Positions 30,726 through 54,293 of a stretch of DNA of 54,293 bases are shown here, one piece after another (within the stretch, counting starts at the first letter, position 1; the number at the start of each line of letters is the position of its first letter). Below the pieces are notes generated by a model. That model searched no databases. It was given only the letters and a program-made list of their open reading frames with translations, and had not been told where the DNA came from. Origin of the DNA: a virus (lineage: Duplodnaviria; Caudoviricetes); the IMG/VR virus record IMGVR_UViG_3300037042_006698, positions 1 to 54,293 of that record. One strand, written 5' to 3'. Made by a program: the position numbers and the translations under genes.

Positions 30726-31175
30726 TCAAGCCTCCGCGAGCGATTGACCACGGTTCTTCATCAACGCGATAACCACTAGAAAAGCAGACGTTCCAAGGAC
30801 CATGGGAACTAGCCAATTCGTTTTTTCACTGCTTTTGGCAGTAAGCTGGTCAATGCGTGCCGCCGCATAATCTCGGAATCCTCTGTTCTTCTCGTTCTCA
30901 GTCGTGCCTTCAATGTATAGGCGGAACCATCGAACAGCAGATTTTGAGTCTCCAAGGCTGTCAAAGTTGTCGCCGAGTTTGATCGCAACGTTTGGCGCGG
31001 GACAAATATCGTATGCCTTCAAATAGATGGCAATCGCTTCATGCCTCTTGCCAGCATCCTGAAGAGCTAACGCTTGATAAAAAAGGTCCGAGACTCTCTT
31101 CTTGTCGGACTCGGAACACTTTGAGATGTCGTAAGCCGACAACCCGGCAACAGCTTGAGCGTAAAACGGCTGCAT
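30726..31175 (-). CDS. TPR-like protein with C-terminal membrane anchor
   Basis: LFYQALALQDAGKRHEAIAIYLKAY...KLG...SAVRWFRLY; WLVPMVLGTSAFLVVIALM-KNR. Confidence 0.75.
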   Translation of the reverse strand: MQPFYAQAVAGLSAYDISKCSESDKKRVSDLFYQALALQDAGKRHEAIAIYLKAYDICPAPNVAIKLGDNFDSLGDSKSAVRWFRLYIEGTTENEKNRGFRDYAAARIDQLTAKSSEKTNWLVPMVLGTSAFLVVIALMKNRGQSLAEA

Positions 31176-31190
31176 GAATGTATCTCTCTG

Positions 31191-31580
31191 TTACCTAGAA
31201 AGGACCATTGTGGCCCCTACAGTTCCAAGAATGGCTCCGGTAAACTTCTGGTCGCTCCACCAAAGCAGCGCGGCTGTGCCAGCAACAGCAAGACCAATCA
31301 TCACCCTCTGAGAGTCTAGCGGGATGTCTCCAAGGCCAGAAACCTCTGACGAGGGTTTTTGCTTGCAAGCAACTACCATCCCACGCGCCTGCAAACCGTT
31401 TCCAATCTCGCGAGCAGCGGAAGGTAGCGGTCGGCCCGCCTCCATGGAAGGTACGCCAAGTTTCGTTGCTCTCGAACTCAGATAGTTCGGCACCGGAAGA
31501 TCGCCATTGACCGGTATCTGACGATTGTCCTCAAAATAACGGTAAAGCCCGCTAGGCTGGTCAAAACATGAGTAAATCAT
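31191..31580 (-). CDS. membrane-anchored hypothetical protein
   Basis: GGAGA RBS before ATG 31580 (MIYSCFD); VSGLGD followed by two hydrophobic segments. Confidence 0.7.
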   Translation of the reverse strand: MIYSCFDQPSGLYRYFEDNRQIPVNGDLPVPNYLSSRATKLGVPSMEAGRPLPSAAREIGNGLQARGMVVACKQKPSSEVSGLGDIPLDSQRVMIGLAVAGTAALLWWSDQKFTGAILGTVGATMVLSR

Positions 31581-31581
31581 G

Positions 31582-32508
31582 TCAATTCTCCGATTCCTTT
31601 GACGTTGCCTTCTTGATTGCGGGGATGCCGTAAACGACTCCCACGTACGCAATGAGAGCCAGGCCAGCGTACTTGACGAGACCCGTCGAAGCTTCAGTCA
31701 CGATATCGGTGCCTGGTCCTTTTTGAGCTAACTCGGCAAGAACTTTGTTGCACTCCGCAGGGTCTTGCTTGCAGAGCCTTTCAAGGACGGCGTTGTACTG
31801 TTCAGTCTTCTTGTCCTGAAGCTGAAGGATAACAAACGCCGATATCGCAGCAACAGCGACGGCAACAGCCCCATAGACGACAGCTACCGGTAGAACCCCT
31901 AGACCAGATGCACCACTTGAGCTGCTATCTGGCCAGTTTTTACAGAGAAAATTCTGCGTTCCGTCTGCTTCCGTGGACCACCGGCAGTCGTATTCCCCTA
32001 AAATTGCACCAAGGCTTCCGTCCCGATCCATCTTGACGATAGAAGCGAACGTCAGAAGTCGTGCTTCCGAATCAATGTCCGCATCCACCAGAGTGTAATC
32101 GTAACTTCTGCCCGCATACCTGGAAACGACCTTGCCAGCCCACGCAGGGACACCTTTAGCAGCTTGTCCGTAGCTTCCGATGATGAACGCCTTGGCAACG
32201 CTTTGGCTTAGTCCTAGCTTTACTTCGTCCGCGACACGAGAAACGCCTTTAGACGTGAGACCAACAAGCTCGGAGCCATGTTGGTTTTCCCACGATGAAA
32301 TGATCGCGGCCGCATCTTTGTAGGCCTTCGGACTGTAAGCAAGGTTTGACGTGTACTTACTGATTGCCCGTCGCGCTGCCAAAAGACCAGACAAAATCTG
32401 CTCCCCGCGCGTGCCTCCAGGGAAGCTTTGCGCGATGGAACGGATCCCCGTGTTTTCAATGAGAGACACCTGCGAAGAGTCGGGCAATCCTGAAAGGCTC
32501 AATAGCAT
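31582..32508 (-). CDS. membrane protein
   Basis: ASGLG immediately before TM1; second TM near the C-terminus followed by KK. Confidence 0.75.
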   Translation of the reverse strand: MLLSLSGLPDSSQVSLIENTGIRSIAQSFPGGTRGEQILSGLLAARRAISKYTSNLAYSPKAYKDAAAIISSWENQHGSELVGLTSKGVSRVADEVKLGLSQSVAKAFIIGSYGQAAKGVPAWAGKVVSRYAGRSYDYTLVDADIDSEARLLTFASIVKMDRDGSLGAILGEYDCRWSTEADGTQNFLCKNWPDSSSSGASGLGVLPVAVVYGAVAVAVAAISAFVILQLQDKKTEQYNAVLERLCKQDPAECNKVLAELAQKGPGTDIVTEASTGLVKYAGLALIAYVGVVYGIPAIKKATSKESEN

Positions 32509-32522
32509 GTCGTCACCTTGCT

Positions 32523-32759
32523 TCAGCGGTACGGATGATGAACGAGGTCGCCGCCAGAAGACATCCCAAAGCGATCGAAAGGCTTTTCGCTCATGCCTCT
32601 TTTAGCGATGAACATCGTCATCGGTTCGGCGGTTTTCGCTTCGGCTGCGATAACCTCAAGGGCTTGCCGATAGTCCTCGCAAAACACGCCTACCTGACTG
32701 CCGTCTGGATAGACAACGGTCAGAATGAAGGTCTGGGGCGTGCTCGCTTTCGGCGACAT
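32523..32759 (-). CDS. small hypothetical protein
   Basis: 78-aa ORF in the operon. Confidence 0.55.
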   Translation of the reverse strand: MSPKASTPQTFILTVVYPDGSQVGVFCEDYRQALEVIAAEAKTAEPMTMFIAKRGMSEKPFDRFGMSSGGDLVHHPYR

Positions 32760-32761
32760 TG

Positions 32762-33112
32762 CTAGAACTTGATCTTAGGGGAAAAGATCACAAAGCCGAG
32801 AAGGACAACTGCTCCCGCTCCAAGAACAAGCATCGGAACGGACACACCGAGAATTTTCGAGCCGCCATCATCCCCGTTGAACGGCACTTCCGCGTAAGGT
32901 CGTGTCGAGTAGCGGTACCCAGGCTGCGGGTAATTAAACACGGGGCCGTGATAGCGCGTCGGGTAGGGGTGCTGATGCGGAATCATCGGATTCGGCACGC
33001 CGCCGTACGTGTTGCCGTAGATGCTGTCCCGTTCGGGACGCGGCGCCATCGGGCGAGGCATGTTCGGCACGACGAAATTGGTAAGCTGAATGGCGTCTCG
33101 ATCGAAAGGCAT
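32762..33112 (-). CDS. Pro/Tyr-rich tail-anchored protein
   Basis: Start reassigned to ATG 33112 (MPFDRD); C-terminal VPMLVLGAGAVVLLGFVIF-SPKIKF. Confidence 0.7.
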   Translation of the reverse strand: MPFDRDAIQLTNFVVPNMPRPMAPRPERDSIYGNTYGGVPNPMIPHQHPYPTRYHGPVFNYPQPGYRYSTRPYAEVPFNGDDGGSKILGVSVPMLVLGAGAVVLLGFVIFSPKIKF

Positions 33113-33113
33113 A

Positions 33114-34322
33114 TCAACCACCCTTTTTGGGCCAGAGCATCCGGATGGCAACACCTGCGGCGACACCAGCGATGCCGAGAGCAACGTACGTTCCGATGTT
33201 GCTTTCACCCGAATCAGTACCCAAGCCGCTCGCTGCAATAAAACGCTGCGGGCGATTGTAGGCGCTTCCGGAAGATGAAGCATACCGTCGCGTCACCTGC
33301 GGCGACTGACGCGGCCCTGCTGCCATTGAAAGGGGAGCGCGCGAGGGCATAAATTGAACGCCCTCGGGATGCTTTGCAATTGGGAGGTTCGCTCCGGCGG
33401 GCCTCGGCATACCCATGGAGTACGCCTGAAGATCGAGAGACGGCGCTGCCGAAACCATGGGGTCGCCCATGTAAGGGAATGCTGGCATGCTGACCGAGTA
33501 ATCTTCGGTAGCAGCAGCGACCAGCATCGAAGGCGGGGTCACCTGGGGAGTCTGAGGAACCTTCGTCTCCGACGGCTTCATCGGCGCGATCTGGGTGCTC
33601 GGCCAGCCTGGAACCTCGCTCGTTTCAAACATTGGATCGCGAGCGGGGCGACCTGGGATGCCCGTCATGTTCGAACGACGAGCGCCGAGCTTCGGATCCT
33701 CGCAGAACGGGATCAGGGAGCCTCCACGGCTCGTCGGCTTGGGTTCCAGGTTAAAAGACTCGGCAGGAGCAAACGTGCTGTCCGGGTCCCAGCCCTTACC
33801 ACCGACACCAGGCTTTGCGTACGGCTCGTAACGGGTCGTCGGATCGAGGTAGGGCAGTGCGTCACCGTGCTCAACGTAATTGAGACCACCGGACGGAATG
33901 CCGACAACCTCGGCACCGGAAGTGATGTCGGTGATTTCTCGATTGACCGTGAACGGAACCTCGCGAGCGTGGTTTCCAGGAATTGAGTAGTGCGCCGCGA
34001 AGACACCGAGATCGGGATTCACTGTGGCGGGACGACGGAACGGGTCGAATACCCCGCTACCGAAAACATCATCCTGCTGCTCCATGTCGCTCACGTCTGC
34101 GTGATCGGAAATCTGATCTTCGTCGTGCATCGTCGGCATCTTTGTCTCTCCAAAGCCGCTCAAAAACCGCCCGTGCTCAGAGGCAAGGCGACGCGACTCA
34201 ACCGGGTTGAGCTGTCCAAGCAGCGGAAGGTTCCGGCTGATTGGGTCCCTATTCACGACCTCGCCCGTATAAGGCTGGTGCGAGGGCGCAAGAAGCAAGT
34301 CGAGTTCTTCGTCGCCAATCAT
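33114..34322 (-). CDS. Pro-rich, largely disordered tail-anchored protein
   Basis: AAGGAG RBS; LSGFGE, ASGLGTD; YVALGIAGVAAGVAI-KKGG. Confidence 0.8.
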   Translation of the reverse strand: MIGDEELDLLLAPSHQPYTGEVVNRDPISRNLPLLGQLNPVESRRLASEHGRFLSGFGETKMPTMHDEDQISDHADVSDMEQQDDVFGSGVFDPFRRPATVNPDLGVFAAHYSIPGNHAREVPFTVNREITDITSGAEVVGIPSGGLNYVEHGDALPYLDPTTRYEPYAKPGVGGKGWDPDSTFAPAESFNLEPKPTSRGGSLIPFCEDPKLGARRSNMTGIPGRPARDPMFETSEVPGWPSTQIAPMKPSETKVPQTPQVTPPSMLVAAATEDYSVSMPAFPYMGDPMVSAAPSLDLQAYSMGMPRPAGANLPIAKHPEGVQFMPSRAPLSMAAGPRQSPQVTRRYASSSGSAYNRPQRFIAASGLGTDSGESNIGTYVALGIAGVAAGVAIRMLWPKKGG

Positions 34323-34343
34323 AATCGCTCCTTGATGCTCAGA

Positions 34344-35111
34344 TCAGCGGTTTCGCTTCCAGTCACCGCAGCCGCAGCCGCCAAGTCCGTCGGGACCTGC
34401 GCCTACGCCGTTAACGGGTCCGAGGGTGGGCATGATGCTTTCGCGCGGAAAATTGTCGCGAACAACGGGACCGCCAAACACGCTCTTGCCCATCATACGG
34501 GGCCGAGCAAACGACACTGCAACCGGGATAGGCTGCGAAGGCATCACGCCCGCGACGCGAACCGGCTGAGAAAATGTCACCTGAACGGGCTGCGCCGAAC
34601 TTGCGGCATCGCCGAAACCATTGACCGGTCCGGGAGTCGGCATAAGGCTGCGCTGACCAATGTTTCGAAGGCCGAGCTGGTTGTCGGGAAGAGTTCGAAT
34701 GTCCCTTCCGCTACCGATGACCCGTGGCTCTTTCTCTTGGAAATAACCGCCGCCAGCGGAATAGCCAACATCCACAGTGCTTCCGTCTAGGATGCCGCCC
34801 TTAGGAGTGTATCCAGCGCGAGCAACACGCCCCGCAGGCTGACCGAGCATTGGCAAACGGTTGACCATCACGGCACGCGGATCCATTGGCTGCGGTGAGG
34901 ATGAGATCTTTCGCGCCTGAACGGAGCTTTGAAAATCCCCCATTCCGACCTTTGAGAAACCGATGTCCTCGTACTTCGGAGACGTCCCCATCACTGAGCG
35001 AGGACCGGGCGGCCAAGGTCGAGCCGGGACCGACGGGAAAATCCCAATGTCGCGCGTCCCCGCGTCAGTTGCCTCGGCACCGAAAATTCCACCACGCGAT
35101 TGATTGCTCAT
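34344..35111 (-). CDS. Gly/Pro-rich protein with repeated G-hydrophobic-G motifs
   Basis: GGAG RBS before ATG 35111; VGMGD, NGFGD, NGVGA, DGLGG; internal repeat S(L/I)MPT(P/L)GPVNG(F/V)G. Confidence 0.75.
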   Translation of the reverse strand: MSNQSRGGIFGAEATDAGTRDIGIFPSVPARPWPPGPRSVMGTSPKYEDIGFSKVGMGDFQSSVQARKISSSPQPMDPRAVMVNRLPMLGQPAGRVARAGYTPKGGILDGSTVDVGYSAGGGYFQEKEPRVIGSGRDIRTLPDNQLGLRNIGQRSLMPTPGPVNGFGDAASSAQPVQVTFSQPVRVAGVMPSQPIPVAVSFARPRMMGKSVFGGPVVRDNFPRESIMPTLGPVNGVGAGPDGLGGCGCGDWKRNR

Positions 35112-35152
35112 TGAATGTCTCCGTCTGTTCTTTAGAATCTGACGCCGCGTCA

Positions 35153-35332
35153 CTATCGTGCGGCAAAAGGCTTAAGCTCGCTTGAGAGTACAAGAACTGT
35201 CGCCGCAAGCCCAATACCAAGAAGCCATGGAATTGCCTTTTGCAACGCTCCTGTCGCGACTGGTTCAGCCGGTGGAGGGGCAAGGACGTTAGCCTCGTCA
35301 ACGCCCAATGGTCGCGCGACACGATAGCTCAT
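35153..35332 (-). CDS. 59-aa membrane protein, not in the ORF track
   Basis: MSYRVARPLGVDEANVLAPPPAEPVATGALQKAIPWLLGIGLAATVLVLSSELKPFAAR*; ATGA overlap with 35329..35958. Confidence 0.75.
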   Translation of the reverse strand: MSYRVARPLGVDEANVLAPPPAEPVATGALQKAIPWLLGIGLAATVLVLSSELKPFAAR

Positions 35333-35958
35333 CGTTTGATCGCTCGAACAAAAAGGGCTCCCGCAACAAAGCTGCCTCCGATGAGTGCAAATGTCTTGAA
35401 GTTCACCGGCAGCCCAAAGATACGGTTGCCATTGAGCTTTGATCCAGGACGTGCAGCCTTTTCGAGGTCGGCCGGGATCGAGACAACGAGGTGCGACCCT
35501 CCGGCACGAGCGAGGCTGAAGATTTCTTTTGGATTTTTCGACAAAACAAGACCGAACATTCCTGCGGCGTTCGGCTTTGAATCCATGAGAACGGCAAACC
35601 CGTTTTTGATTTCACTTCCGACATCGACGCTCGTTTTGGCATCGTCGGGACCTAGTTTGACGTCGAATGACGACGCACCACGCGGGAGCTTCGTTCCAGG
35701 TACAGGGGTAAGCTTCCAGGCGTTGGTAAGTGTCTCGGAGATCAGAATCGGCACATATTTGAGAGCGCTACCGCTGCGGCTCTCCGATAAAAACTGGCCC
35801 GACTTAACGCCATCCGCAGTCCACTGAGCCGTCTTCAGAGCCGCCTGAAAAGCCGGATCCTTTTGGCCATCTGGCGTCAATTCAACCTGGGGGACCTGCG
35901 ACGACGAAGCGCCAGCGGGAGCATCAGCACCAAACGATTTTGCAAGACGGTACGACAT
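35329..35958 (-). CDS. tail-anchored hypothetical protein
   Basis: MSYRLAKSFGAD; C-terminal FALIGGSFVAGALFV-RAIKR. Confidence 0.75.
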   Translation of the reverse strand: MSYRLAKSFGADAPAGASSSQVPQVELTPDGQKDPAFQAALKTAQWTADGVKSGQFLSESRSGSALKYVPILISETLTNAWKLTPVPGTKLPRGASSFDVKLGPDDAKTSVDVGSEIKNGFAVLMDSKPNAAGMFGLVLSKNPKEIFSLARAGGSHLVVSIPADLEKAARPGSKLNGNRIFGLPVNFKTFALIGGSFVAGALFVRAIKR

Positions 35959-35970
35959 GATGTTTTTCCT

Positions 35971-36558
35971 TCAATCTAGATCCCAAGTGAGGATTTCCTG
36001 CGCGCGCTCAGCGGCCTCTCGCTCCCGAGGACCCGCCACGGAATCCATCCAAATCCACTCGTTTGTCTTCGGCTCTTGAACACGGCAGGCGACGTGCGTC
36101 AGCGTATTGGGGGCGAAACCAAGCGCAACAAACTGCGGACGGCGACCTAGCTGCATTGCCATCGTCGCACACATGAGCGCCTGCTCGTCGCAGTCCACCG
36201 CCGTCGTCCCGAAGTTCATGATCTCCTCAACCATGCGCTGCGGATCCTTGACCAGTTCAACGTGCCTTGGGTCGTTGATGTAGCGGAAAATAGGCGTGCC
36301 AGGACGAACGGGGCTCGGCTGAACGAGGATGTTCCGAAGCGCGATGATTTCGCCCAAATAATCCTTCGGACAAACGTCGCGAACCACCCACTCGGTAAAC
36401 CGACGAACGAGGATGCTTCTCTCGCCTCGATCGCCGAGAGCGAGGTTCGCCATCAGGGCAAGCGTGTCCTTTGCGCCTCGAAAAGGTCGAGTCGTCACAG
36501 GAGGAGCGGCACCGAGAAAACTGTAGGTATGGGGCGGCATAAGCGCGCACGAGTCCAT
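35971..36558 (-). CDS. transglutaminase-like cysteine protease
   Basis: Cys-His-Asp triad: VDCDEQA, THVACRV, WIWMD; FRYINDP...ELVKDP. Confidence 0.85.
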   Translation of the reverse strand: MDSCALMPPHTYSFLGAAPPVTTRPFRGAKDTLALMANLALGDRGERSILVRRFTEWVVRDVCPKDYLGEIIALRNILVQPSPVRPGTPIFRYINDPRHVELVKDPQRMVEEIMNFGTTAVDCDEQALMCATMAMQLGRRPQFVALGFAPNTLTHVACRVQEPKTNEWIWMDSVAGPREREAAERAQEILTWDLD

Positions 36559-36634
36559 TCAACCCCGCGCCAGCCGCACGTTCCCTCAGGGTCCGCCAAG
36601 GAGCCTAACCCAGGGGACCCTGAGAGTCCAGGTC

Positions 36635-36841
36635 TTAAACGCGGGCCACCGGCGCTCGACGATTTCCATCGCCGAGCGCGTTTCCATTAGGCATGTCGTA
36701 GATACGAAAAGATGGCGTAATGCGGTCCGCTGCGTACAGCGGACCTAGTCCCATCATGGCCCGAATTGCATCGACCATCGATCGACCAAAGTCCTGATCG
36801 TCGGTAGTAGGGCCAGTCCGCTTACGTTTTGCAACCGTCAC
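36635..36841 (-). CDS. small hypothetical protein
   Basis: GTGA overlap with the upstream gene; DAIRAMMGLGPLY. Confidence 0.55.
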   Translation of the reverse strand: MTVAKRKRTGPTTDDQDFGRSMVDAIRAMMGLGPLYAADRITPSFRIYDMPNGNALGDGNRRAPVARV

Positions 36842-39246
36842 GGAGAATATCCCTGCTCTTGAACCTTCGCCGTGGCGATCTTCCAGAGGTTGGCAACGAA
36901 ACGCTGACCATCGCGAGTTGCAATGGCGGTGTTGGCGGAGAGCTGCTGAGCAGTTTCAACAATGTCCTGGGGCTTGAACTGACCGAGTAGCATTGCCGTC
37001 TGTTCAGGTCCGATTTCGGAAATGACGCCAATCGCGAAAGTTTCCGGACTTAGAACCTTGTTCGCTACCGCCCCTTCAAGTTTTTCAAAGAACTCGATAA
37101 TCAACGCGCCCGTGTCTCCTGCCGTCTTTTCGGAAGGAGCCTGTGACGATGTCGTGTCCGATGAACTGGCCATCGAAGGACTGCCGACTACGGCGAGCTG
37201 TGACTCCACGCTGCCTGGCGCCTGCATGGTCGATTCTGAAGCCACCTGCGCTTGGAGCGGCGAGGCCATAACGGACGGTGTTGGGGCAAAAGGCACGGGG
37301 CTCGTCGGTGGCGAATACGCGGAGCCGAAGGGAGACGACATCGCTTCCCGTGAGGGAGGCGCGCTATTGGCCGATTGGGATACGGGGGCGGCTGGAGGTG
37401 CGTACCGTGCTTGACGGGAAACAGCCTGTTGCGCCTGAGGGGCCTGTGTTTGCGGCGCCGCAAGCTGCCTAACCTGGCGCTGTTGAATCTCCCGCGCCTG
37501 AGCCTGGCCCTGCTGCATTTGCTGCTGTTGGGCCATCTGCATCTGCTGCTGCTGGGCCATCTGCATCTGCTGCGCCTGAAGCATCGAGTCCGCCTGGTCC
37601 TTTCTGGCTTGCATGATTTTTTCAAGGACCTGTGGTGCGCTGTCAAACGCTTGGCGAGCGAGTCCGAGAAATTGTGCCATCGTAGAGTTCGACTCTCCTT
37701 CGGGCTTCTCGGAGGCTATCGAAGCGTCAACTAGGCCGAGTTCGGCGCCCATTTCACGAATCTCGCGGATGGCCGTCATCGGATCCTTGTGCTGCTTTGC
37801 CCGCTCCTGATCGAGGCGGTCACGCAAATCGGAGTTCTCGCGCCTTAGATCGGCTACCTCTGATCTGATTCGCTGCTCTTCGGCCTTGACCGCCTCGCGC
37901 TTCATTTCAGCCGACTCTCGGGCGAGTGTCGATTGAGCGCGCTCGCTTTGGCGGATGCTCTCGATCTCGCGAGCCGTCATGTCGCGGACGCTCTGAAGTT
38001 CACGATCAGTGGAGAGACGCAAATCTGCGATGCGCTGGTCAAACGTCTCTCGAAGCTGAGTGACCTCGGCCTGCTTCTGAGCTGTGATCTGGTCAATACG
38101 GTAACGGGAGTCCTCGCGAAGGCGCTCGCGCTCAAGAGTCTGAGCGGACTCGTAGTTGCGGCGCTCCTCGTCATTCCGACGCGTCATGTCCTCGACGATT
38201 CTTCGATGGTCCTTCGAAATGTCATCGAGCTTTTTGGAGTTCTCATCCATGATCCGCCGACGCTCCTCGTCTGCGCGGTCACGCACCTCTCGAAGCTGAG
38301 AAGCTGACTGGTCCTTCAACTCGGCGATTCGCGCGTCATACGACACGCGCATGTCGCTGACGACTTTGGTCTCGACAGCAAGGGTCGTCGCCGTCGCCTT
38401 TTGCTTCAGTTCGATGATCTCTTCTTGTAAGCGACGGATCTCAGCGTCTTTCTGGCTGACGTCGGACTGTGCTCCATTCTTGACTGCAATGAGTTCTTGC
38501 CGAATTCGATCCGCCTCGTCGCGCCAGAATTCAATCTGTGCGGTCTTCAAACCTTGGACGTCATCGACCATGCGCTTGGTCGTCTCGTAAAAGTTCGGCA
38601 CAAGGTCTCGTTGGATTCGATCCGCCTTTTCCTCGGCACGTTGCCGGTCAAGGTGCAGACGGTCTCGCTCACGAGCGTCGAGTTGCATGCGCTGGGTTTC
38701 AACCTGGGTGTTCACGTTGCCACTTCCGTCGGGGATTGAAATTGTTGAAGCGGAATCACCGCCGATGTTTGGATCGCCAGAAACCCGAAAGCGAACGTCC
38801 TTAGCGGTCTTGTAGTCGCTTAGCGTTCCTTCGTTCTGGGTGGTTGGCTTCATCACCAATACTTGGTAGACGCCGCCGCCAAAGCGCGACCGAAACTCCT
38901 CAAGGCTAATGCGGTCGTAAATCTCGCATAGAAAGCCTGCGGTCGAATGGCCGCGAAACGACTTGGGTTCAAACCGCGTAATCCGAAGCTTCCAGTCTCC
39001 CTTTCCGATTTCCGGAAACGAGTCGTAAAGGTCCTCAAGCGAAACCACGCTTGAAGACGAACGGTTCTTGTCCCTCGATGCGTCGCGGTCGCGATCCCGA
39101 GAAGGCTTTAGAGCAAACTCCGGATCCGGTTGAAACACTGGCGATTCGCCAACGTCGTCCCAAAGCGGCGCATCGGGTAGCACAAAGGACTGGGCTTCTT
39201 GCTGCCGTCCGAGTTCGGAGGCGGCATCATCTGAGGCTTGGGTCAT
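36838..39246 (-). CDS. large coiled-coil protein with a Gln/Pro-rich linker
   Basis: N-terminal globular part (RFGGGVYQV), roughly 300-aa E/R-rich coiled coil, QMQMAQQQ repeats, helical C-terminal domain. Confidence 0.85.
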   Translation of the reverse strand: MTQASDDAASELGRQQEAQSFVLPDAPLWDDVGESPVFQPDPEFALKPSRDRDRDASRDKNRSSSSVVSLEDLYDSFPEIGKGDWKLRITRFEPKSFRGHSTAGFLCEIYDRISLEEFRSRFGGGVYQVLVMKPTTQNEGTLSDYKTAKDVRFRVSGDPNIGGDSASTISIPDGSGNVNTQVETQRMQLDARERDRLHLDRQRAEEKADRIQRDLVPNFYETTKRMVDDVQGLKTAQIEFWRDEADRIRQELIAVKNGAQSDVSQKDAEIRRLQEEIIELKQKATATTLAVETKVVSDMRVSYDARIAELKDQSASQLREVRDRADEERRRIMDENSKKLDDISKDHRRIVEDMTRRNDEERRNYESAQTLERERLREDSRYRIDQITAQKQAEVTQLRETFDQRIADLRLSTDRELQSVRDMTAREIESIRQSERAQSTLARESAEMKREAVKAEEQRIRSEVADLRRENSDLRDRLDQERAKQHKDPMTAIREIREMGAELGLVDASIASEKPEGESNSTMAQFLGLARQAFDSAPQVLEKIMQARKDQADSMLQAQQMQMAQQQQMQMAQQQQMQQGQAQAREIQQRQVRQLAAPQTQAPQAQQAVSRQARYAPPAAPVSQSANSAPPSREAMSSPFGSAYSPPTSPVPFAPTPSVMASPLQAQVASESTMQAPGSVESQLAVVGSPSMASSSDTTSSQAPSEKTAGDTGALIIEFFEKLEGAVANKVLSPETFAIGVISEIGPEQTAMLLGQFKPQDIVETAQQLSANTAIATRDGQRFVANLWKIATAKVQEQGYSP

Positions 39247-39255
39247 GGTTGAACC

Positions 39256-39771
39256 TCAGATTGCAGCCGATTCGTATTCGTCTTCTTCTGCTTCCGCTTC
39301 CGATTCATCGTCGGATTCAGCTTCGTCGTCTTCATCCGTATCGGCCGTATTTTCGCTAACCCATTCGCGAACTCGCTCAACGAGAAGCATCGCCTCGCTT
39401 AGCCTCTGATCTGCATCTGAATTGATGCTTGCGCTGCTGTCGCGAATGAGGCGAACGAAAACTTCGCACGTCGCGGCCAGGCTTAAGATCATGTTTGCCT
39501 CGTCTTCGCCAAGAATAGGTGGCTCTGATCCAGCCTCCAGCGTGCTCAGGCGAGCATCCACATCTTGGAGACTGTCGCTGACGTATTGTCGGAACTGCAA
39601 AAAATAACCGACAAGGTCCTCCATCACGCTGAGGCCAGTATCGCTTAGCTCCGAAAGAACTTTCTTCGGCGTCGGCTCAGCAATCTTTCCCAGGCGTTCT
39701 CGCTGAAGGCGTACGTCGGCCCAAAGATTTGTAAGTGCATCCTGCTCAATCGAGTCAATTTGCTGGGTCAT
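39256..39771 (-). CDS. helical protein with an acidic tail
   Basis: C-terminal DTDEDDEAESDDESEAEAEEDEYE. Confidence 0.75.
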   Translation of the reverse strand: MTQQIDSIEQDALTNLWADVRLQRERLGKIAEPTPKKVLSELSDTGLSVMEDLVGYFLQFRQYVSDSLQDVDARLSTLEAGSEPPILGEDEANMILSLAATCEVFVRLIRDSSASINSDADQRLSEAMLLVERVREWVSENTADTDEDDEAESDDESEAEAEEDEYESAAI

Positions 39772-39820
39772 AGGTCTTTCAGTCGTTCGGGTGTTGTTCC
39801 AAAAGGTGCTGGCGGCGCGC

Positions 39821-40663
39821 TTACGCGAGCCGGAAAGGCTTTACAAGCTCAAGGTGGCGCTTGCTGTTCAACCGCGTTCGGTCGAAGCTTTCGAGGTACT
39901 TCTCAGTTGTCGCTGGGTCAACAGGGTTGCGGTAGTCGCAGGCATAAACTGCCTCGTCGCGCAAGGACATGTACGCACCGCCAACGCTGCGTCGTGCTGA
40001 GCAGTTGTAAAATCGAATCAGATGGCCATGCTCTTTCGGATTCGGAACGTCGTCATTCGCCATCACCTGACGCAGGAAATGTTTGCAGCGCTCGCGGCGC
40101 ATGCGGACAGCGACGTAAAATTCTTCCTCGCGCACTACCGCCACGCCAAACTTCCGCTCAACCCGCGATGGCTCGAATTCCCTGCGCTCACGCTCTTCGC
40201 CGGTTGACGCATGGAAACGCGACAAAACGTTGGCAAACATCGTGCTCTCACGAGCCTCCGCTGGCGTGAAGCGCTGACCAGATTTGCGCTCCCATCCTCG
40301 GGCTTCGACCTCGTCATCGAAAAGCTCAACAAACATCGTGTCGTCTTCCACGCAGACGACGGTGTCACGCGTGAAAGGATGAGCCGCCGCCAAATCATGA
40401 CGCTCGTCGGCGGGAACGGGCATGCCGTCTACCGGGCTTTCGACGAGAATCGATGTGATCGGCTGATACGCTTCGAAAATTTCCTCGCGCAACGAGACTT
40501 CCGCATCATCCGCTTTACCATCACGCTCTGTCACGCCTACCTCGCATTCATCTGCTGGCACGTCGCAGTCAAAACCGTCCGCCTCGGCGAGTGGTTCATC
40601 CTCAAGCTCTTTTCGGTCTTGTTCCACGGCGGCCAAGGTAGTGATGAAGCGCGACCGGCGCAA
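39821..40663 (-). CDS. hypothetical protein (start uncertain)
   Basis: Acidic N-terminus; C-terminal domain with Cys in RCKHF, NCSAR and ACDYR. Confidence 0.65.
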   Translation of the reverse strand: MRRSRFITTLAAVEQDRKELEDEPLAEADGFDCDVPADECEVGVTERDGKADDAEVSLREEIFEAYQPITSILVESPVDGMPVPADERHDLAAAHPFTRDTVVCVEDDTMFVELFDDEVEARGWERKSGQRFTPAEARESTMFANVLSRFHASTGEERERREFEPSRVERKFGVAVVREEEFYVAVRMRRERCKHFLRQVMANDDVPNPKEHGHLIRFYNCSARRSVGGAYMSLRDEAVYACDYRNPVDPATTEKYLESFDRTRLNSKRHLELVKPFRLA

Positions 40664-50236: not shown

Positions 50237-52684
50237 ATGCCGAAAGCAGCTTTGGCAAAACCTATCTCGCGTAATCAGGCATTGTCCTACGACAGGACAG
50301 TGCCGAATGGCCTTGGCGTGACGGCAATCTCAGCCGTGAACGGCCGTGGGAGCTACGCGCGCTTCGCGGCGAATCGTTACAAGGCAACGCGCAGCATTAT
50401 CGGCGGCGCTGGTTCGTCTTCCGAACTCTCACCGAATGGAGACGGGATGTTTTACTACAAGAACAAGAAAAGCGCGCCGAAGATGAGCGCAAAGGCCAAG
50501 AAGAAGTGCGCTCCGCTCGTGAGCAAGGCTGTCTCGGAGGCGAAAGCGGCCCTCGACAAACTTGCCAAGAAGTCGAAGCCCGCGAAAAAGGCCAAGAAGC
50601 GCAAGCTGAGCGCTGCCCAAAAGGCGGCGCTCAAGAAGGGTCAGGCCATGATGGCTGCTCGTCGCGCGGCGATTGCCTCCGGTCGTCCTCTTCCGAAGAA
50701 AGCCCCCAAGAAGGCCGCCCCCAAGAAGGCCGCCCCCAAGAAGGCGAAAAAGGCTTCCAAGAAGGCTCCGAAGCGGGCAAAGAAGTACCAGCCGAAGCCT
50801 TTCGTGCGTAAGGCTGCTCCGAAGCGTAAGGCTGCTCCGAAGCGTAAGGCTGCTCCGAAGCGTAAGGCTGCCGCAAAGCACAAGGCGCCGAAGCATAGCG
50901 CCAAGAAGTCCAAGAAGTTTAAGCGTGTCAAAGCGCTCTACGTTCTTGCTAACCGCAAGTATCGCGCAAACCTCAGCTACGATCAGCTCGTCGCGTACGA
51001 GGCTGCTCGCGCGAAGAAGTCCGCTCCGGCTGCTGCCCAGTCTGCTGCCGCCCCGGCGCGGGGTCTCGCTGCTTACCGGCAGCTCCGCGCGCAGGTGAAG
51101 TCGCTCAAGGATGCTGCCCGTGGCGAGGCGGGTCCCGCGAAGGCCGCTCGCGACAAGGCGAAGGCAGACTACGCTGCGGCGGTGAAGTCGTTTAAGGGTA
51201 AGAAGGACGCTGGGTCGAAGGCCCAGCTTCGTCAAGCCAAGGCGACCCTCGACGTGGCGCAGGCGCAGTATGATTACGCGCAGCACCTTACCGATGCGAA
51301 GATCGCTGCGGCTCAGGGCATGCTTCCCGCCAAGAAGGCACGCAAGGCTCGCAAGCCGGTTCAGCCTCGCGTGTTCGGCGCTCAGTACAAGTCGAAGCGC
51401 GTTCGCGTCGGCAAGAGCGGTCACGCGAACGTTGTGGCGCGCATCGGCAAGAAGGGCGTTGCCACCTACATGTACCTCGACAAGAAAGGCAAGGCGCGCA
51501 AGCTCCCTGACTGGATGGTCGCCGGTGCCCCGAGCGCCGAAGCGTTCGAGAAGAAGCCTGCGTATAAGGAGCGCCTTGCAGCTCGCCGCAAGAAGGCGGC
51601 CGAGTCGGTCAGCAAGAAGGTCCTCGCAGGCAACTATCCGTTCACCCCGAATAAGCGGGTGGTGACTTTTGAACAGTGGGCAAAATCTATGAAGAAGAAG
51701 CACAAGAAGCACGGTAAGGCTCGCCACAACCCGCTTATGCAGGCAGCGGCGAACAAGAAGCGCGGTCGCAAGCACCGCAAGGCTCGTCGCAACCCCCTCA
51801 TGCAGGCAGCGGCGAACAAGAAGCGTGGTCGCAAGCACTCGAAGCGCATGCACCGTAACGGCCAGGTTGCGACGTACATCAGCAACATGGGCGCTTACGC
51901 TTCGGACCTCCTTGAGGTTTTGAAGAGCGGCGCGGTCGTCAGCGGCGGCCTCATCGCCCACAAGGCGCTGACCAACGTCGTCGTCGAGCAGGCGTTCGGC
52001 AAGATTGAGTTCCTCGGCAAGCTCCCCGCGAAGTACCAGAAGAGCGTCGCGGCTGTCGCCGTGGCGGCCGTTGGTATCCCGCTTTCGACGAAGTTCGGCG
52101 GCCAGTATGGCAAGAAGGTCAGCATGGGCATGGGCGCCGCCCTCGTCCACACGCTGTTCTCCGAGCTGCTCGGCGGCATGGACTCGACGGCGAAGTACAA
52201 GCAGTACCTCGGATCGTACACCGAGGCCGACATGAGGCTTCCGATGGGCTCGTACTACGAGTTCCAGCCGGGTCAGTCTTATGCCGGAATGGGTGAGTAC
52301 ATTGAGCAGTCCGGCCCTTTGGCCGGTTTCGGTGAGCTTCAGCAAGCGGCGGCCGGTTTCGGCTCGCCCGCGCTGATGCAGGCCGCTGCTGGGGTTGGCG
52401 AGTACATTGTGTCCGGTGCCGAGGGTATCGGCGAGTACGAGCAGGTTCGCCCTGAGTACACCGCGCCCCATTCGCTTCGTGAAGGCATCGCGCCGAGCCT
52501 CGGTTCGGCCGAGCAAGCGCTGAACATCGCGGAGGCGGCGGCTGGAGTGGGTGGTCTTGGAAATCAGGACCTCTCCCTTGAGCAGACCGTCTACCCGCAA
52601 GGTCAGGCCCTCGATATCGGGGACCAGCCTGGCGGAAGCCGTGCCGGTGTCTTTTACGGCGGCAACGGCGTGTTTGGTCCCTGA
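50237..52684 (+). CDS. histone-H1-like, membrane-linked putative virion core/scaffold protein
   Basis: KKAAPKK and KAAPKR repeats, a duplicated KARxNPLMQAAANKKRGRKH, hydrophobic helices, then an acidic tail with G-(M/F/V/I)-G-E repeats; directly upstream of the capsid candidate. Confidence 0.8.
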   Translation: MPKAALAKPISRNQALSYDRTVPNGLGVTAISAVNGRGSYARFAANRYKATRSIIGGAGSSSELSPNGDGMFYYKNKKSAPKMSAKAKKKCAPLVSKAVSEAKAALDKLAKKSKPAKKAKKRKLSAAQKAALKKGQAMMAARRAAIASGRPLPKKAPKKAAPKKAAPKKAKKASKKAPKRAKKYQPKPFVRKAAPKRKAAPKRKAAPKRKAAAKHKAPKHSAKKSKKFKRVKALYVLANRKYRANLSYDQLVAYEAARAKKSAPAAAQSAAAPARGLAAYRQLRAQVKSLKDAARGEAGPAKAARDKAKADYAAAVKSFKGKKDAGSKAQLRQAKATLDVAQAQYDYAQHLTDAKIAAAQGMLPAKKARKARKPVQPRVFGAQYKSKRVRVGKSGHANVVARIGKKGVATYMYLDKKGKARKLPDWMVAGAPSAEAFEKKPAYKERLAARRKKAAESVSKKVLAGNYPFTPNKRVVTFEQWAKSMKKKHKKHGKARHNPLMQAAANKKRGRKHRKARRNPLMQAAANKKRGRKHSKRMHRNGQVATYISNMGAYASDLLEVLKSGAVVSGGLIAHKALTNVVVEQAFGKIEFLGKLPAKYQKSVAAVAVAAVGIPLSTKFGGQYGKKVSMGMGAALVHTLFSELLGGMDSTAKYKQYLGSYTEADMRLPMGSYYEFQPGQSYAGMGEYIEQSGPLAGFGELQQAAAGFGSPALMQAAAGVGEYIVSGAEGIGEYEQVRPEYTAPHSLREGIAPSLGSAEQALNIAEAAAGVGGLGNQDLSLEQTVYPQGQALDIGDQPGGSRAGVFYGGNGVFGP
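50806..50871. repeat. 18-bp tandem repeat GCGTAAGGCTGCTCCGAA x3.7
   Basis: Encodes RKAAPK repeats. Confidence 0.9.
51716..51838. repeat. 63-bp-period tandem duplication
   Basis: Encodes KAR(H/R)NPLMQAAANKKRGRKH twice. Confidence 0.85.
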
Positions 52685-52831
52685 TCTGTGTTAGATTGCG
52701 ATGCGGGGACTGGTTTTGGGAATTGAACCAGCCTTCGCATCGAAAAATAATCATTCCCTGGCGAGGGGGAACCAGACCCCTAAGGGCAAAACCGGCCCCC
52801 AAAAAACGGTAGCCATCAAGGAAATACGACA

Positions 52832-53602
52832 ATGCCGAAACTTACCAATGTTCGTGAGCGTGTTCACCAGCCCTTTCGCGACACCCTCGTTCGCACCTCC
52901 GGTATGTATACCGGAAATATCACCGACGTGACCCGCCTCTTCACCGTTGCGGGCAAGCCCGAAGGTGAAACCAACCTGCCGAACGGCAGCACGCTCCCGA
53001 GCGACCAGTCGATGGTTGTTCTCGCGTGCCGCGTGTTCACGCACTTCCGCAACTCGATCCAGCGCAGCACCTCGCCGCTCTCGATCGGTGGCCAGGACAT
53101 CCTGCGCCACAACGGTGACTTCGTCTACCCGGCGGACGCCGCAACGGCGACCCAGTTCGCCCAGCTCCTCAACGGCCAGGCCGTTGGCGAGCCGGAAGAC
53201 TGCTTCCGCCTCTGGTGGCAGGCGCAGGACCAGCTCCTTTGGAGCTTCGGTGCTGGAGACAAGTTCTCCATCACCAGCATGCCCTCGGCGTATTTCCCGT
53301 ACGGCGGCGGCTTGGCCCAGGGCCAGATGCAGCAAACCGACCTTATCTACTGGTCGAACGGTATGCCGAGCCACGAGGGTATCCTCCGTCTCGCGCGCGC
53401 CGTGCTCATCCCCCCGCGCCAGAACATCAAGTGCGAAGCGCAGATCAGCCCCCTCTCGGCTCTTTCGAACGCCGCGACGGTCAGCTCGACCCAGGGCGCC
53501 CGCAACTTGCTCTCGCTGCGCGACAACTTGAACGCCCCCGACCTTATCAACAAGGTTGTGTCGTTCACGTTTGACGGCCTTTTCAGCCGCGACGTGCAGT
53601 GA
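52832..53602 (+). CDS. candidate major capsid protein (single jelly-roll type)
   Basis: AAGGA RBS and strong codon bias; beta-strand-rich pattern HQPFRDTL...LFT...ETNL...LP...NGMP...VLIPPRQNI...FDGLFSRDVQ; no HK97 features; downstream hairpins. Confidence 0.6.
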   Translation: MPKLTNVRERVHQPFRDTLVRTSGMYTGNITDVTRLFTVAGKPEGETNLPNGSTLPSDQSMVVLACRVFTHFRNSIQRSTSPLSIGGQDILRHNGDFVYPADAATATQFAQLLNGQAVGEPEDCFRLWWQAQDQLLWSFGAGDKFSITSMPSAYFPYGGGLAQGQMQQTDLIYWSNGMPSHEGILRLARAVLIPPRQNIKCEAQISPLSALSNAATVSSTQGARNLLSLRDNLNAPDLINKVVSFTFDGLFSRDVQ

Positions 53603-53607
53603 GACCA

Positions 53608-53690
53608 CGCGCGGTCGGCCGGATACGGCCTCCGCGCTCTCTCGCGAAAATGCCCGACTCGGCCTTCCGGTCGGGTCGGGCATTTCGTTT
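53608..53690 (+). terminator. tandem hairpins / terminator after the capsid candidate
   Basis: GCGCGG..GGCCG-GATA-CGGCC..CCGCGC, then AAATGCCCGACTCGGCC-TTCC-GGTCGGGTCGGGCATTT followed by T-rich sequence. Confidence 0.7.
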
Positions 53691-53758
53691 CATTCTTCTC
53701 CGTTACCGGTGTCATCACCCTGGCTCTGACATGGCCTTGGTGGTCGAAAGGAAGTGTC

Positions 53759-54293
53759 ATGAACCAGTACGACGTTTCTGATTTTGCTCGGGCGCTTGAG
53801 CAGATGCGGTCCGACTTCAACCAGGGCCTCAATCGCGTTGCGGGTGGTCTGCGTAACTACAACGACAAGCAGCTCGCGCAAATGCACGGGCGCATGGAGG
53901 AGTTGTCTCGCGTAACGAACTCGATGCACGCGAAGCGTAGCGGCCGATTCTGGCAGGGTCGCACGACGATGATCGAGGATATCCCCGGTCGTCGCGTCCC
54001 CTACGTCCTCGTGGTAGACATCCCGATCAGCTCCTCGGATACAAGCATCCGCGAGTCGTCGGTTACGATTTCGCAAGAAGGCCCCTTCGTTGCCGTCAAG
54101 CGTATGGCGACGTTCCAGAGCGTTCTTGAGTACCAGGTGAACACCGTTTCAGAAGGAATTGCCCGATTTACCGGCCGGTCGTTCGGTCGCTATCGACCGG
54201 TGCATTCGGTCTGCGACATCATGGACTCGCAGCACAACACGCTTGGAAACACGAGCCAGTGGTTCCTCGCGGCGCTTGCGAACCCGAACGCCG
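53759..54293 (+). CDS. 3'-truncated protein, candidate second capsid protein
   Basis: AAAGGAAG RBS; MNQYDVSDFARALEQ...IEDIPGRRVPYVLVVDIPI...VTISQEGPFVAVKR...; open to the window end; helical N-terminus then beta-strands. Confidence 0.65.
   Translation, partial: MNQYDVSDFARALEQMRSDFNQGLNRVAGGLRNYNDKQLAQMHGRMEELSRVTNSMHAKRSGRFWQGRTTMIEDIPGRRVPYVLVVDIPISSSDTSIRESSVTISQEGPFVAVKRMATFQSVLEYQVNTVSEGIARFTGRSFGRYRPVHSVCDIMDSQHNTLGNTSQWFLAALANPNA

What the first reader, a model, noticed from the sequence alone, without database searches (positions are those of the whole stretch)
50237..54293. Core-protein plus two capsid-like genes suggest a large tailless jelly-roll virus
Seen: an H1-like membrane-linked protein, then a 256-aa beta-rich gene with strong codon bias and a terminator, then a second beta-rich gene. 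No terminase, portal, HK97 capsid or tail-tube gene is recognisable in 54 kb. Established: internal-membrane viruses such as SH1 and P23-77 use two single-jelly-roll capsid proteins. Inference: this is a related but much larger and probably unclassified lineage infecting a peptidoglycan-containing bacterium.
Basis: inference. Interest (0 to 1): 0.85.

Follow-up and report, generated by a model that had tools for sequence, protein, structure and literature searches.

The report
Jelly-roll capsid genes, large tailless phage
The end of this contig carries what are probably the shell and DNA-coating genes of an uncultured bacterial virus of about 150 kb that shows none of the head, portal, packaging or tail genes of ordinary phages and instead has a jelly-roll shell protein of the kind known from much smaller membrane-containing viruses.

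Summary
At 50237-54293 lie a very basic, alanine/lysine-rich 815-aa gene, a 256-aa gene with the strongest codon bias measured in the window and a 17-bp terminator hairpin, and a third gene cut by the contig end. None has a Pfam or PHROG hit.

An AlphaFold2 model of the 256-aa protein is confident (pLDDT 88.6). It is a beta-sandwich whose weak Foldseek matches (none at E <= 0.001 in PDB) are mostly jelly-roll virus capsid proteins, led by Sulfolobus polyhedral virus 1. The full-length relative of the third gene modelled poorly (pLDDT 63), so its fold is open.

The window is only about 36% of its genome. A complete relative (143,727 bp, terminal repeats) carries the same gene trio. HMM searches found no terminase, portal, HK97 capsid or FtsK/A32-type ATPase in it or in four other records.

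Best reading (0.55): the morphogenesis module of an undescribed lineage of large, probably tailless and membrane-containing bacterial viruses. Kinship with SH1/P23-77 is not shown, and their packaging ATPase is missing. This scan has noted the same lineage before on other DNA. Three literature searches found no description. All evidence is computational.

The parts
50237..52684 (+). 815-aa basic protein: Lys/Ala-rich residues 1-550, mildly hydrophobic 551-650, acidic Gly-rich tail with four GxGE[YL] motifs. Candidate DNA-condensing core protein.
   Evidence: Composition. No Pfam or PHROG hit. Homologue present in 5 of 5 related records, directly upstream of the 256-aa gene.
52723..52751 (+). 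Sigma-70-like promoter match upstream of the 256-aa gene
   Evidence: 9 of 12 hexamer positions matched. One site was found in the region against 0.7 expected, so this is weak.
52832..53602 (+). 256-aa single jelly-roll protein; candidate major capsid protein
   Evidence: AF2 pLDDT 88.6, pTM 0.85. Foldseek top PDB hits are SPV1 6oj0_Z and 6oj0_A, and 36 of 44 listed rows are virus capsid proteins, all with E > 0.001. BFVD top hits are capsid proteins. GC3 0.84 and Nc 32.8. 661 homologues. 59-70% identity among the five records.
53648..53685 (+). Intrinsic-terminator-like hairpin (17 pairs, 10 G-C, loop of 4) with a T-rich tail
53759..54293 (+). First 178 codons of a 343-380-aa conserved structural protein (second capsid candidate), cut by the contig end
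   Evidence: 42-52% identity to full-length relatives. 645 homologues of the L001 relative. AF2 of that relative gave pLDDT 63: a helix at 8-55, then beta-rich. Weak jelly-roll capsid hits.
28908..40663 (-). Conserved divergent block that probably belongs to the same morphogenesis set. It holds the 280-aa (39821-40663), coiled-coil 802-aa (36838-39246) and 195-aa (35971-36558) core genes and a run of proteins with C-terminal hydrophobic anchors (28908, 30474, 30726, 31582, 32762, 33114, 35329).
   Evidence: Synteny with G002 3.2-15.6 kb and presence in 4-5 of 5 records. Anchors. Coiled-coil and Pro/Gln-rich make-up. No family hits.

Best explanation
The three genes are the start of the virion morphogenesis operon of an uncultured bacterial virus. 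The virus belongs to a widespread, undescribed lineage with genomes of roughly 140-250 kb.

The 256-aa protein is a single jelly-roll capsid protein, probably the major one (the fold is modelled; the role is inferred). The truncated gene encodes a second conserved beta-rich virion protein of about 350 aa (role inferred, fold unresolved).

The 815-aa Lys/Ala-rich protein most likely coats and condenses the DNA into a core. Its hydrophobic middle and acidic GxGE-repeat tail may tie that core to an inner membrane or to the shell (inferred).

No complete relative shows a terminase, a portal or an FtsK/A32-type ATPase. The genome may therefore be enclosed as a pre-condensed nucleoprotein, as in Sulfolobus polyhedral virus 1, rather than pumped into a preformed shell (inferred, the weakest step). 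The many tail-anchored proteins of the divergent conserved block would sit in the virion membrane (inferred).
For: - Fold: AF2 model of the 256-aa protein has pLDDT 88.6 and pTM 0.85. The best PDB matches are the SPV1 capsid chains 6oj0_Z (E 0.022) and 6oj0_A (E 0.032, prob 0.99, TM 0.36 by query and 0.50 by target). 36 of the 44 listed rows are jelly-roll capsid proteins, among them PRD1 P3, PBCV-1, SGIV, PCV2, SPMV and SH1. In BFVD, 1 hit has E <= 0.001 (an iridovirus capsid fragment), followed mostly by capsid proteins.
- Signs of an abundant core virion protein: strongest codon bias of 25 genes and its own terminator. It is one of the two most conserved proteins shared among the five records, at 59-70% identity. 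It has 661 homologues, none named.
- Conserved trio: basic ~800-aa gene, ~256-aa gene and ~350-aa gene lie in the same order in 5 of 5 records.
- Complete relative G002 (143,727 bp, 123-bp terminal repeat, CheckV 100%): no terminase, portal, capsid, tube or sheath PHROG among 148 ORFs (25 of 65 families listed) or among 71 ORFs of the syntenic regions (25 of 26 listed).
- Six-frame HMM searches of all five records gave 0 of 5 for each of PF03237, PF03354, PF04466, PF17289, PF05876 (terminase), PF05065 (HK97 capsid), PF04860, PF05133 (portal), PF01580 (FtsK) and PF04665 (A32).
- The only Walker-A ORFs in the window are the UvrD and DnaB helicases; other pattern matches lie in ORFs that are not candidate ATPases. 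None of G002's Walker-A ORFs is a conserved candidate.
- 10 of 63 window ORFs end in a hydrophobic anchor, clustered in the conserved block.
- Weak hint of transcription: contigs from 4 of 4 RNA libraries laid (4 studies) match 52247-53604 almost exactly. Such libraries can also hold DNA.
Against: - No fold match reaches E <= 0.001 in PDB, and TM-scores are low (0.2-0.5). Jelly-roll sandwiches also occur in decoration proteins, fibre knobs, carbohydrate-binding modules and hydrolases; 8 of the 44 listed rows are of that kind.
- The second protein modelled poorly (pLDDT 63; the Atlas model has pLDDT 0.49), so 'two jelly-roll capsid proteins' is not shown.
- Profile searches against PDB sequences found nothing meaningful. 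The two proteins are not detectably related to each other.
- Missing HMM hits do not prove that a divergent terminase, portal or HK97 protein is absent. 40 of the 65 PHROG families were not displayed.
- A fibre protein with phage tail-fibre-type repeats is present.
- No virion, membrane or host has been observed.
- The window holds only 36% of its genome.
Confidence: 0.55

Rival explanations
1. A very divergent tailed phage (Caudoviricetes). Its HK97 capsid protein, portal and terminase exist but escape Pfam and PHROG profiles. The 256-aa jelly-roll protein would be a head decoration/cement protein or a fibre or receptor-binding part, and the basic 815-aa protein an internal head protein.
For: - A fibre protein with tail-fibre-type repeats.
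- Atlas neighbours are labelled Uroviricota, though these are automatic labels.
- Jelly-roll cement proteins exist in tailed phages; the Pam1 capsid chain 7eel_H appears among the hits of the second model.
- Genome size and the replication genes (DnaB, primase, UvrD, SNF2) are typical of large phages.
- 40 of the 65 PHROG families were not displayed.
Against: - Ten hallmark Pfam families gave 0 of 5 records each, including one complete genome.
- No head or tail PHROG was listed for 148 and 71 ORFs of the complete relative, nor for 64 window ORFs.
- Genes shared by the five records include no P-loop ATPase and no candidate of portal size. The ~800-aa core proteins are low-complexity: one coiled-coil, one basic.
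- No HK97-fold entry appears among the listed Foldseek rows for either model.
Confidence: 0.2
2. A PRD1/adenovirus-type design. [quoted passage not shown]
For: - The top rows for the 343-aa model are double jelly-roll proteins: vaccinia D13 (E 0.0036), Sputnik, STIV, SGIV and Melbournevirus capsid proteins.
- 343-380 aa is the size range of small double jelly-roll capsid proteins such as STIV and PRD1 P3 (recalled).
- Relatives of the 256-aa protein without the middle insert are about 190-210 aa, the size of penton proteins (penton sizes recalled).
Against: - The model is poor (pLDDT 63) and the TM-scores are 0.15-0.23, so the hits may mean nothing.
- About 13 strands are modelled, fewer than the 16 of two jelly rolls.
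- The 256-aa gene, not the 350-aa gene, has the strongest codon bias and conservation. A penton protein is needed in far fewer copies.
- The A32-type ATPase typical of that lineage is absent.
Confidence: 0.15
3. Not a virus. The element would be a large plasmid or other mobile element, and the jelly-roll proteins would build a cell-surface layer, a compartment or a secreted structure.
For: - No hallmark virus gene has a significant sequence match.
- All 15 loci found in genome collections lie on MAG contigs.
Against: - The records are classed as viral, with terminal repeats on the complete one.
- Lysis-type enzymes, a fibre protein, homing endonucleases and phage-type replication genes are present.
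- The MAG labels span 10 or more unrelated taxa, as expected of mis-binned virus contigs.
- The nearest folds are capsid proteins.
Confidence: 0.05

Closest known systems
Portogloboviridae: Sulfolobus polyhedral virus 1 (SPV1), capsid proteins VP4 and VP10, core protein VP1 (PDB 6OJ0; ICTV profile PMC8459092, whole text read)
   Same: The best Foldseek matches of the 256-aa model are SPV1 capsid chains. In SPV1 single jelly-roll proteins form the shell over a lipid layer, around a nucleoprotein core made of a DNA-coating protein. The profile lists no packaging ATPase among its nine annotated ORFs and does list a glycosyltransferase and a methyltransferase. Here there is likewise a basic DNA-binding-type protein next to the capsid gene, no packaging ATPase, and conserved glycosyltransferases in relatives.
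   Different: SPV1 infects a hyperthermophilic archaeon and has a 20-kb circular genome without replication genes. This lineage has genomes of about 140 kb or more, bacterial-type DnaB, primase and helicases, and peptidoglycan enzymes. The fold match is weak (E 0.02-0.03) and there is no sequence similarity. The 815-aa basic protein has no shown relation to VP1.
SH1, HHIV-2 and P23-77 group (two single jelly-roll capsid proteins, internal membrane; Sphaerolipoviridae, Simuloviridae, Matshushitaviridae)
   Same: Two adjacent small beta-rich structural genes. SH1 and HHIV-2 capsid chains appear among the weak fold matches. Tail-anchored membrane proteins are frequent.
   Different: Genomes of that group are 16-31 kb (16-19 kb for Simuloviridae in the abstract listed; the rest recalled). 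Their FtsK/HerA-type packaging ATPase has no counterpart here. The SH1/HHIV-2 matches rank low (ranks 27 and 50). The second protein's fold is unresolved.
PRD1-type double jelly-roll viruses (Tectiviridae, Corticoviridae, Autolykiviridae and metagenomic groups; PMC5894146, seen in a search listing only)
   Same: Tailless membrane-containing bacterial viruses with jelly-roll capsids. PRD1 P3 and other double jelly-roll proteins are among the weak matches.
   Different: Known prokaryotic members have small genomes; the abstract of PMC11071308, listed, gives under 50 kbp for Preplasmiviricota. They encode an A32-type ATPase, which is absent here. A double jelly roll is not shown here.
Large tailed phages (Caudoviricetes)
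   Same: Genome size, replication and helicase genes, homing endonucleases, a repeat-rich fibre protein and endolysin-type enzymes.
   Different: No HK97 capsid, portal, terminase, tube, sheath or baseplate family was detected in a complete relative. The 'baseplate hub' hit covers only positions 378-530 of the 536-position profile. That stretch is probably the lysozyme part; this is my reading, supported by the endolysin hits.

Membership tests
Duplodnaviria / Caudoviricetes (tailed phages) | HK97-fold major capsid protein | tested here: not met
   PF05065 gave 0 of 5 records. No capsid PHROG was listed. No HK97-fold entry among the listed Foldseek rows of either model. Other capsid Pfam families (such as PF03864, PF07068 and PF11651) were not searched, and structure was predicted for only two proteins.
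Duplodnaviria / Caudoviricetes (tailed phages) | Large terminase subunit (ATPase-nuclease) | tested here: not met
   PF03237, PF03354, PF04466, PF17289 and PF05876 each gave 0 of 5 records. No conserved Walker-A ORF.
Duplodnaviria / Caudoviricetes (tailed phages) | Portal protein | tested here: not met
   PF04860 and PF05133 each gave 0 of 5. The ~800-aa core proteins are coiled-coil or basic low-complexity proteins. Other portal families were not searched.
SH1/P23-77 group (two vertical single jelly-roll capsid proteins) | Two adjacent major capsid proteins, each with a single jelly roll | tested here: inconclusive
   The first protein is a confident jelly-roll-type model. The second has pLDDT 63 with only weak hits. 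The orientation of the rolls in a capsid cannot be told.
SH1/P23-77 group (two vertical single jelly-roll capsid proteins) | FtsK/HerA-superfamily (A32-like) genome-packaging ATPase | tested here: not met
   PF01580 and PF04665 each gave 0 of 5 records, including the complete 143.7-kb relative.
SH1/P23-77 group (two vertical single jelly-roll capsid proteins) | Internal lipid membrane | not testable with these tools
   Indirect only: 10 of 63 ORFs have C-terminal hydrophobic anchors.
Portogloboviridae (SPV1) | Single jelly-roll capsid proteins homologous to VP4/VP10 | tested here: inconclusive
   Best PDB fold matches, but with E 0.022 and 0.032 and TM 0.27-0.50. No sequence-profile match to PDB chains.
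Portogloboviridae (SPV1) | Nucleoprotein core made by a dedicated DNA-coating protein; no packaging ATPase | tested here: inconclusive
   A conserved 743-859-aa Lys/Ala-rich protein lies next to the capsid gene in 5 of 5 records, and no ATPase was found. DNA binding is inferred from composition only.
Portogloboviridae (SPV1) | About 20-kb circular genome, hyperthermophilic archaeal host | tested here: not met
   The complete relative is 143,727 bp. Bacterial-type replication and peptidoglycan enzymes are present.
PRD1-type double jelly-roll viruses (Bamfordvirae) | [quoted passage not shown] | tested here: inconclusive
   Weak double jelly-roll hits (D13 at E 0.0036, STIV, Sputnik) to a low-confidence model.

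The most novel reading that the evidence does not exclude
This is a realm-level, undescribed lineage of bacterial viruses with 140-250-kb genomes. It builds a membrane-lined icosahedral shell from small jelly-roll proteins. It encloses its DNA without any packaging motor, as a nucleoprotein condensed by a giant histone-H1-like protein. That architecture is so far known only from a 20-kb archaeal virus.
Probability: 0.3. Interest if true: 0.9.

Novelty: new variant of a known kind. Interest (0 to 1): 0.75.

Why it matters
All described jelly-roll-capsid viruses of bacteria and archaea have small genomes (about 10-50 kb), and large bacterial virus genomes are assumed to be tailed phages. If this holds, a widespread freshwater and sediment lineage of about 150 kb uses jelly-roll shell proteins, many membrane-anchored proteins and a huge basic DNA-coating protein, and has no recognisable packaging motor. 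That would break the size limit and add a major branch to the virus world. It would also make it possible to test how a large genome is enclosed without a terminase or an A32-type ATPase. In practice, such contigs are now auto-labelled as tailed phages.

Tried and rejected
- Searches of the GenBank phage collection by tblastn with the 256-aa and 178-aa proteins found no match.
- Profile searches of both families against PDB sequences gave only chance hits to coiled coils, apolipoproteins and antibody fragments.
- hhalign between the two families gave probability 2.3%, so they are not detectable paralogues.
- ESM Atlas look-ups of the 802-aa core protein and of the 343-aa relative gave only unnamed viral clusters.
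- Complex prediction on the L001 pair (264 aa + 343 aa) returned 'no answer', score 0.00 against a mark of 0.32. It counts neither for nor against binding.
- Circular closure of the window: no terminal or inverted repeat. Reading the last ORF across the ends gives an unrelated tail, so the contig is a fragment.
- The PHROG 'baseplate hub' (phrog_196) and 'tail protein' (phrog_4577) hits were followed up. The first covers only profile positions 378-530 of 536, in a 239-aa tail-anchored muramidase-like protein. The second covers a ~60-aa repeat in three G002 proteins. Neither shows a tail.
- A conserved 444-aa protein of the relatives, considered as a possible packaging enzyme, looks like a GT-B glycosyltransferase (with the PHROG glycosyltransferase hits).
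- Host: the scan of species-representative genomes gave 15 loci, all on MAG contigs with 10 or more different taxon labels and none in an isolate genome. No host could be named.
- RNA libraries: parts of the stretch without cover, and the matches at 50701-50745 (a Lys/Ala repeat, probably from other organisms), are not used. Seven runs of four studies hold half or more of the sampled words (labelled sediment, freshwater or plain metagenome), and one of them may be the source sample.
- Literature: three full-text searches listed no paper describing large bacterial viruses with jelly-roll capsids and no terminase. Only listings and abstract openings were seen, except PMC8459092, which was read whole. 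Supplements were not opened.
- My simple gene caller mis-called some strands in the GC-rich relatives (for example G003 at 175.9-177.8 kb), so one search used stop-to-stop ORFs instead.

Full report
WHAT IS THERE

The window is the whole held record: one contig of 54,293 bp with no direct or inverted terminal repeat. IMG/VR and CheckV rate it linear and 36% complete.

Three genes lie on the + strand at its 3' end: 50237-52684 (815 aa), 52832-53602 (256 aa), and 53759-54293 (178 codons, open at the contig end). None hits any Pfam or PHROG family.

The 815-aa protein has three parts:
- Residues 1-550 are strongly basic and alanine-rich (K+R up to 22 per 50 residues).
- Residues 551-650 are mildly hydrophobic. 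Only the windows at 603-604 reach a Kyte-Doolittle mean of 1.5.
- Residues 651-815 are acidic and glycine-rich, with four GxGE[YL] motifs.

The 256-aa gene has the strongest codon bias of the 25 genes measured (GC3 0.84, Nc 32.8). A weak promoter-like site precedes it, and a 17-pair hairpin with a T-rich tail follows at 53648-53685. Two limits apply: 'H1-like' is compositional, and 'membrane-linked' is not shown.

RELATIVES

Four IMG/VR records carry the same genes:
- G001: 75 kb, 52% complete.
- G002: 143,727 bp, with a 123-bp direct terminal repeat and 100% complete by CheckV.
- G003: 182 kb, 73% complete.
- G004: 38 kb, 26% complete.

All five records have, in the same order, a 743-859-aa basic protein, a 254-264-aa protein and a 343-380-aa protein. 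The window's last ORF is therefore the N-terminal half of the third gene (42-52% identity).

Both small proteins have about 650 metagenomic homologues, none with a name or a Pfam domain (661 and 645). A search of 50%-identity representatives found 84 clusters for the 256-aa protein. These include ~190-210-aa forms that lack residues ~80-125, so the core is about 200 aa.

Among ORFs shared by the records, the 256-aa protein (59-70% identity) and a 195-aa protein (35971-36558; 56-66%) are the most conserved.

Contigs of all four RNA libraries laid match 52247-53604 almost exactly. This is a weak hint of transcription, because such libraries can carry DNA.

FOLDS

With a 58-sequence alignment, the 256-aa protein gave a confident AlphaFold2 model (pLDDT 88.6, pTM 0.85). 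It is a beta-sandwich with a helical insert at 103-134.

Foldseek against PDB found nothing at E <= 0.001. The best rows are the capsid chains of Sulfolobus polyhedral virus 1 (6oj0_Z at E 0.022; 6oj0_A at E 0.032, prob 0.99, TM 0.36/0.50). 36 of the 44 listed rows are jelly-roll virus capsid proteins (PRD1 P3, PBCV-1, SGIV, PCV2, SPMV, SH1, picornaviruses, polyomaviruses). The other 8 are hydrolase, CBM or TNF-like sandwiches.

Against BFVD, one hit reaches E <= 0.001 (an iridovirus capsid fragment), and named rows are mostly capsid proteins. I read this as a viral-type single jelly roll, shown at fold level only.

The full-length L001 relative of the third gene modelled poorly (pLDDT 63, pTM 0.54). 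It has a helix at 8-55 and then about 13 strands. Its weak hits are again mostly jelly-roll capsid or scaffold proteins: 26 of 40 listed rows, 12 of them the same vaccinia D13 protein, best E 0.0036, TM 0.15-0.23. On such a model they prove little.

The two families are not detectably related to each other or to any PDB sequence.

IS IT A TAILED PHAGE IN DISGUISE?

In the window, 64 ORFs were scanned with PHROGs and 30 of them also with Pfam. The hits are:
- DnaB, primase, UvrD and SNF2 helicases.
- PAPS reductase with ParB, and a LAGLIDADG endonuclease.
- Pentapeptide-repeat proteins and a GP88 domain.
- Endolysin and transglycosylase families.
- Repeat-driven 'tail fiber' hits of a 945-aa fibre protein.

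No terminase, portal, capsid, tube, sheath or baseplate protein was hit.

The window is only a third of a genome, so the real test is the complete relative G002:
- 148 of its 195 called ORFs were scanned. The 47 left out were 37 shorter than 95 aa, 7 already annotated by Pfam, and 3 that span fetched pieces. The 25 listed of 65 PHROG families include none of these hallmarks.
- A second scan of the 71 ORFs in the regions syntenic with the window listed 25 of 26 families, again with none. The only exception is a marginal 'tail terminator' at E 0.0049.
- Six-frame HMM searches of all five records gave 0 of 5 for each of five terminase families, HK97 capsid, two portal families, FtsK and poxvirus A32.
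- The 'baseplate hub' hit covers only the last quarter of its profile, in a tail-anchored muramidase-like protein. The 'tail protein' hit is a 60-aa repeat.

Genes shared by the records include no P-loop ATPase. The shared ~800-aa protein (36838-39246) is a Glu/Arg-rich coiled coil with a Pro/Gln-rich linker, not a portal.

Absence of HMM hits is not proof, and 40 PHROG families were not displayed. I therefore keep a divergent tailed phage as a rival at 0.2.

OTHER FEATURES THAT FIT A MEMBRANE-CONTAINING PARTICLE

Ten of 63 window ORFs end in a hydrophobic C-terminal anchor. Seven of them sit in the conserved block at 28.9-36 kb. The other three are the muramidase-like 11260-11979, the 449-aa endolysin-like 22611-23960, and 31582-32508. 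Relatives carry conserved glycosyltransferases and PG_binding_1 proteins just downstream of the trio.

HOW IT MOST LIKELY WORKS

- Shown: a conserved, apparently highly expressed jelly-roll protein sits between a giant basic protein and a second conserved beta-rich protein. The lineage has no recognisable packaging motor.
- Inferred: the 256-aa protein forms the capsomers of an icosahedral shell, and the ~350-aa protein is a second shell or vertex protein.
- Inferred: the basic protein condenses the DNA, and its hydrophobic and acidic C-terminal parts tie the core to a membrane or shell.
- Inferred: the tail-anchored proteins populate an inner membrane, and the fibre protein serves host recognition.
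- Inferred, and the least secure step: the genome is enclosed as a nucleoprotein rather than pumped in.

This matches the published architecture of SPV1: a single jelly-roll VP4/VP10 shell, a lipid layer and a VP1-DNA core (PMC8459092, read whole). That match is a resemblance in how it works, not membership. SPV1 is a 20-kb archaeal virus, the fold match is weak and there is no sequence similarity.

COMPARISON AND NOVELTY

- Membership in the SH1/P23-77 group fails on the packaging ATPase and on genome size. It is inconclusive on the second jelly roll.
- Membership in tailed phages fails on all three hallmark genes, as far as HMMs can see.
- A PRD1-like design (double jelly roll plus penton) remains possible at 0.15.

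Three full-text searches found no description of such a lineage (listings only). The scan's own notes show that other agents reached the same reading on other DNA of this lineage: 102 notes in at least 79 genomes, including a complete 144-kb genome. Those are unchecked AI notes and I do not count them as evidence. My fold, synteny and absence results were obtained before I read them.

I rate this a new variant of a known kind (jelly-roll, probably membrane-containing virus) with unusual size and no known motor. Interest is 0.75, limited by wholly computational evidence, weak fold statistics, one unresolved protein and a fragmentary window.

Noticed in passing
window 28908-35958 (-), 11260-11979 (-), 22611-23960 (-): 10 of 63 ORFs end in a C-terminal hydrophobic anchor without an N-terminal signal-like segment (19-aa Kyte-Doolittle mean of 1.6 or more). 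They include a muramidase-like and an endolysin-like protein. This density of tail-anchored proteins is unusual for a phage.
   Followed up: partly
window 25314-28151 (-): A 945-aa fibre protein built from dozens of ~11-aa 'NAVTSAKIA'-type repeats, with a distinct C-terminal domain. Its PHROG 'tail fiber' and 'head decoration' hits come from the repeats.
   Followed up: partly
window 36838-39246 (-): An ~800-aa core protein present in 5 of 5 related records. It has a conserved N-terminal domain, a long Glu/Arg-rich coiled coil, a Pro/Gln-rich linker and a conserved C-terminal domain. It has no family hit; a scaffold-like role is possible.
   Followed up: partly
window 35971-36558 (-): A 195-aa protein with no Pfam or PHROG hit that is as conserved as the capsid candidate (56-66% identity across records).
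   Followed up: no
window 47470-49288 (+): A PAPS-reductase/DUF3440 gene overlapping a ParB-like gene (phrog_2302 and phrog_2159, both strong hits), followed by a LAGLIDADG endonuclease at 49273-50124, directly upstream of the structural genes.
   Followed up: no
window 12761-14932 (-), 17248-18708 (-), 16179-16814 (-): Large pentapeptide-repeat proteins (Pfam Pentapeptide, E 1e-63 and 1e-77 for the first two). The third also appears to be one, judging from the repeat-family PHROG hits.
   Followed up: no
window 2626-2699 (+): A single tRNA-Asn (anticodon GTT).
   Followed up: no
L011:5788-9456 (-) (G002 125788-129456) and homologues in G001 and G003: A ~1200-aa protein with a tyrosine-recombinase (Phage_integrase) domain at residues 308-487, conserved in three relatives at 35-36% identity. 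It is absent from the window fragment.
   Followed up: no
L007:9471-10802 (+) (G002) with homologues in G001 and G003: A conserved ~445-aa protein with a GT-B-type glycosyltransferase signature (…SRGEGFDMPAxDAKLxGN…). G002 also has a 1103-aa glycosyltransferase-methyltransferase fusion. This suggests glycosylated virion proteins.
   Followed up: partly
G004 32850-34043 and 34201-34977 (L031): G004 has two copies of the 256-aa family side by side (397 aa and 258 aa), so the capsid candidate has been duplicated in at least one relative.
   Followed up: no
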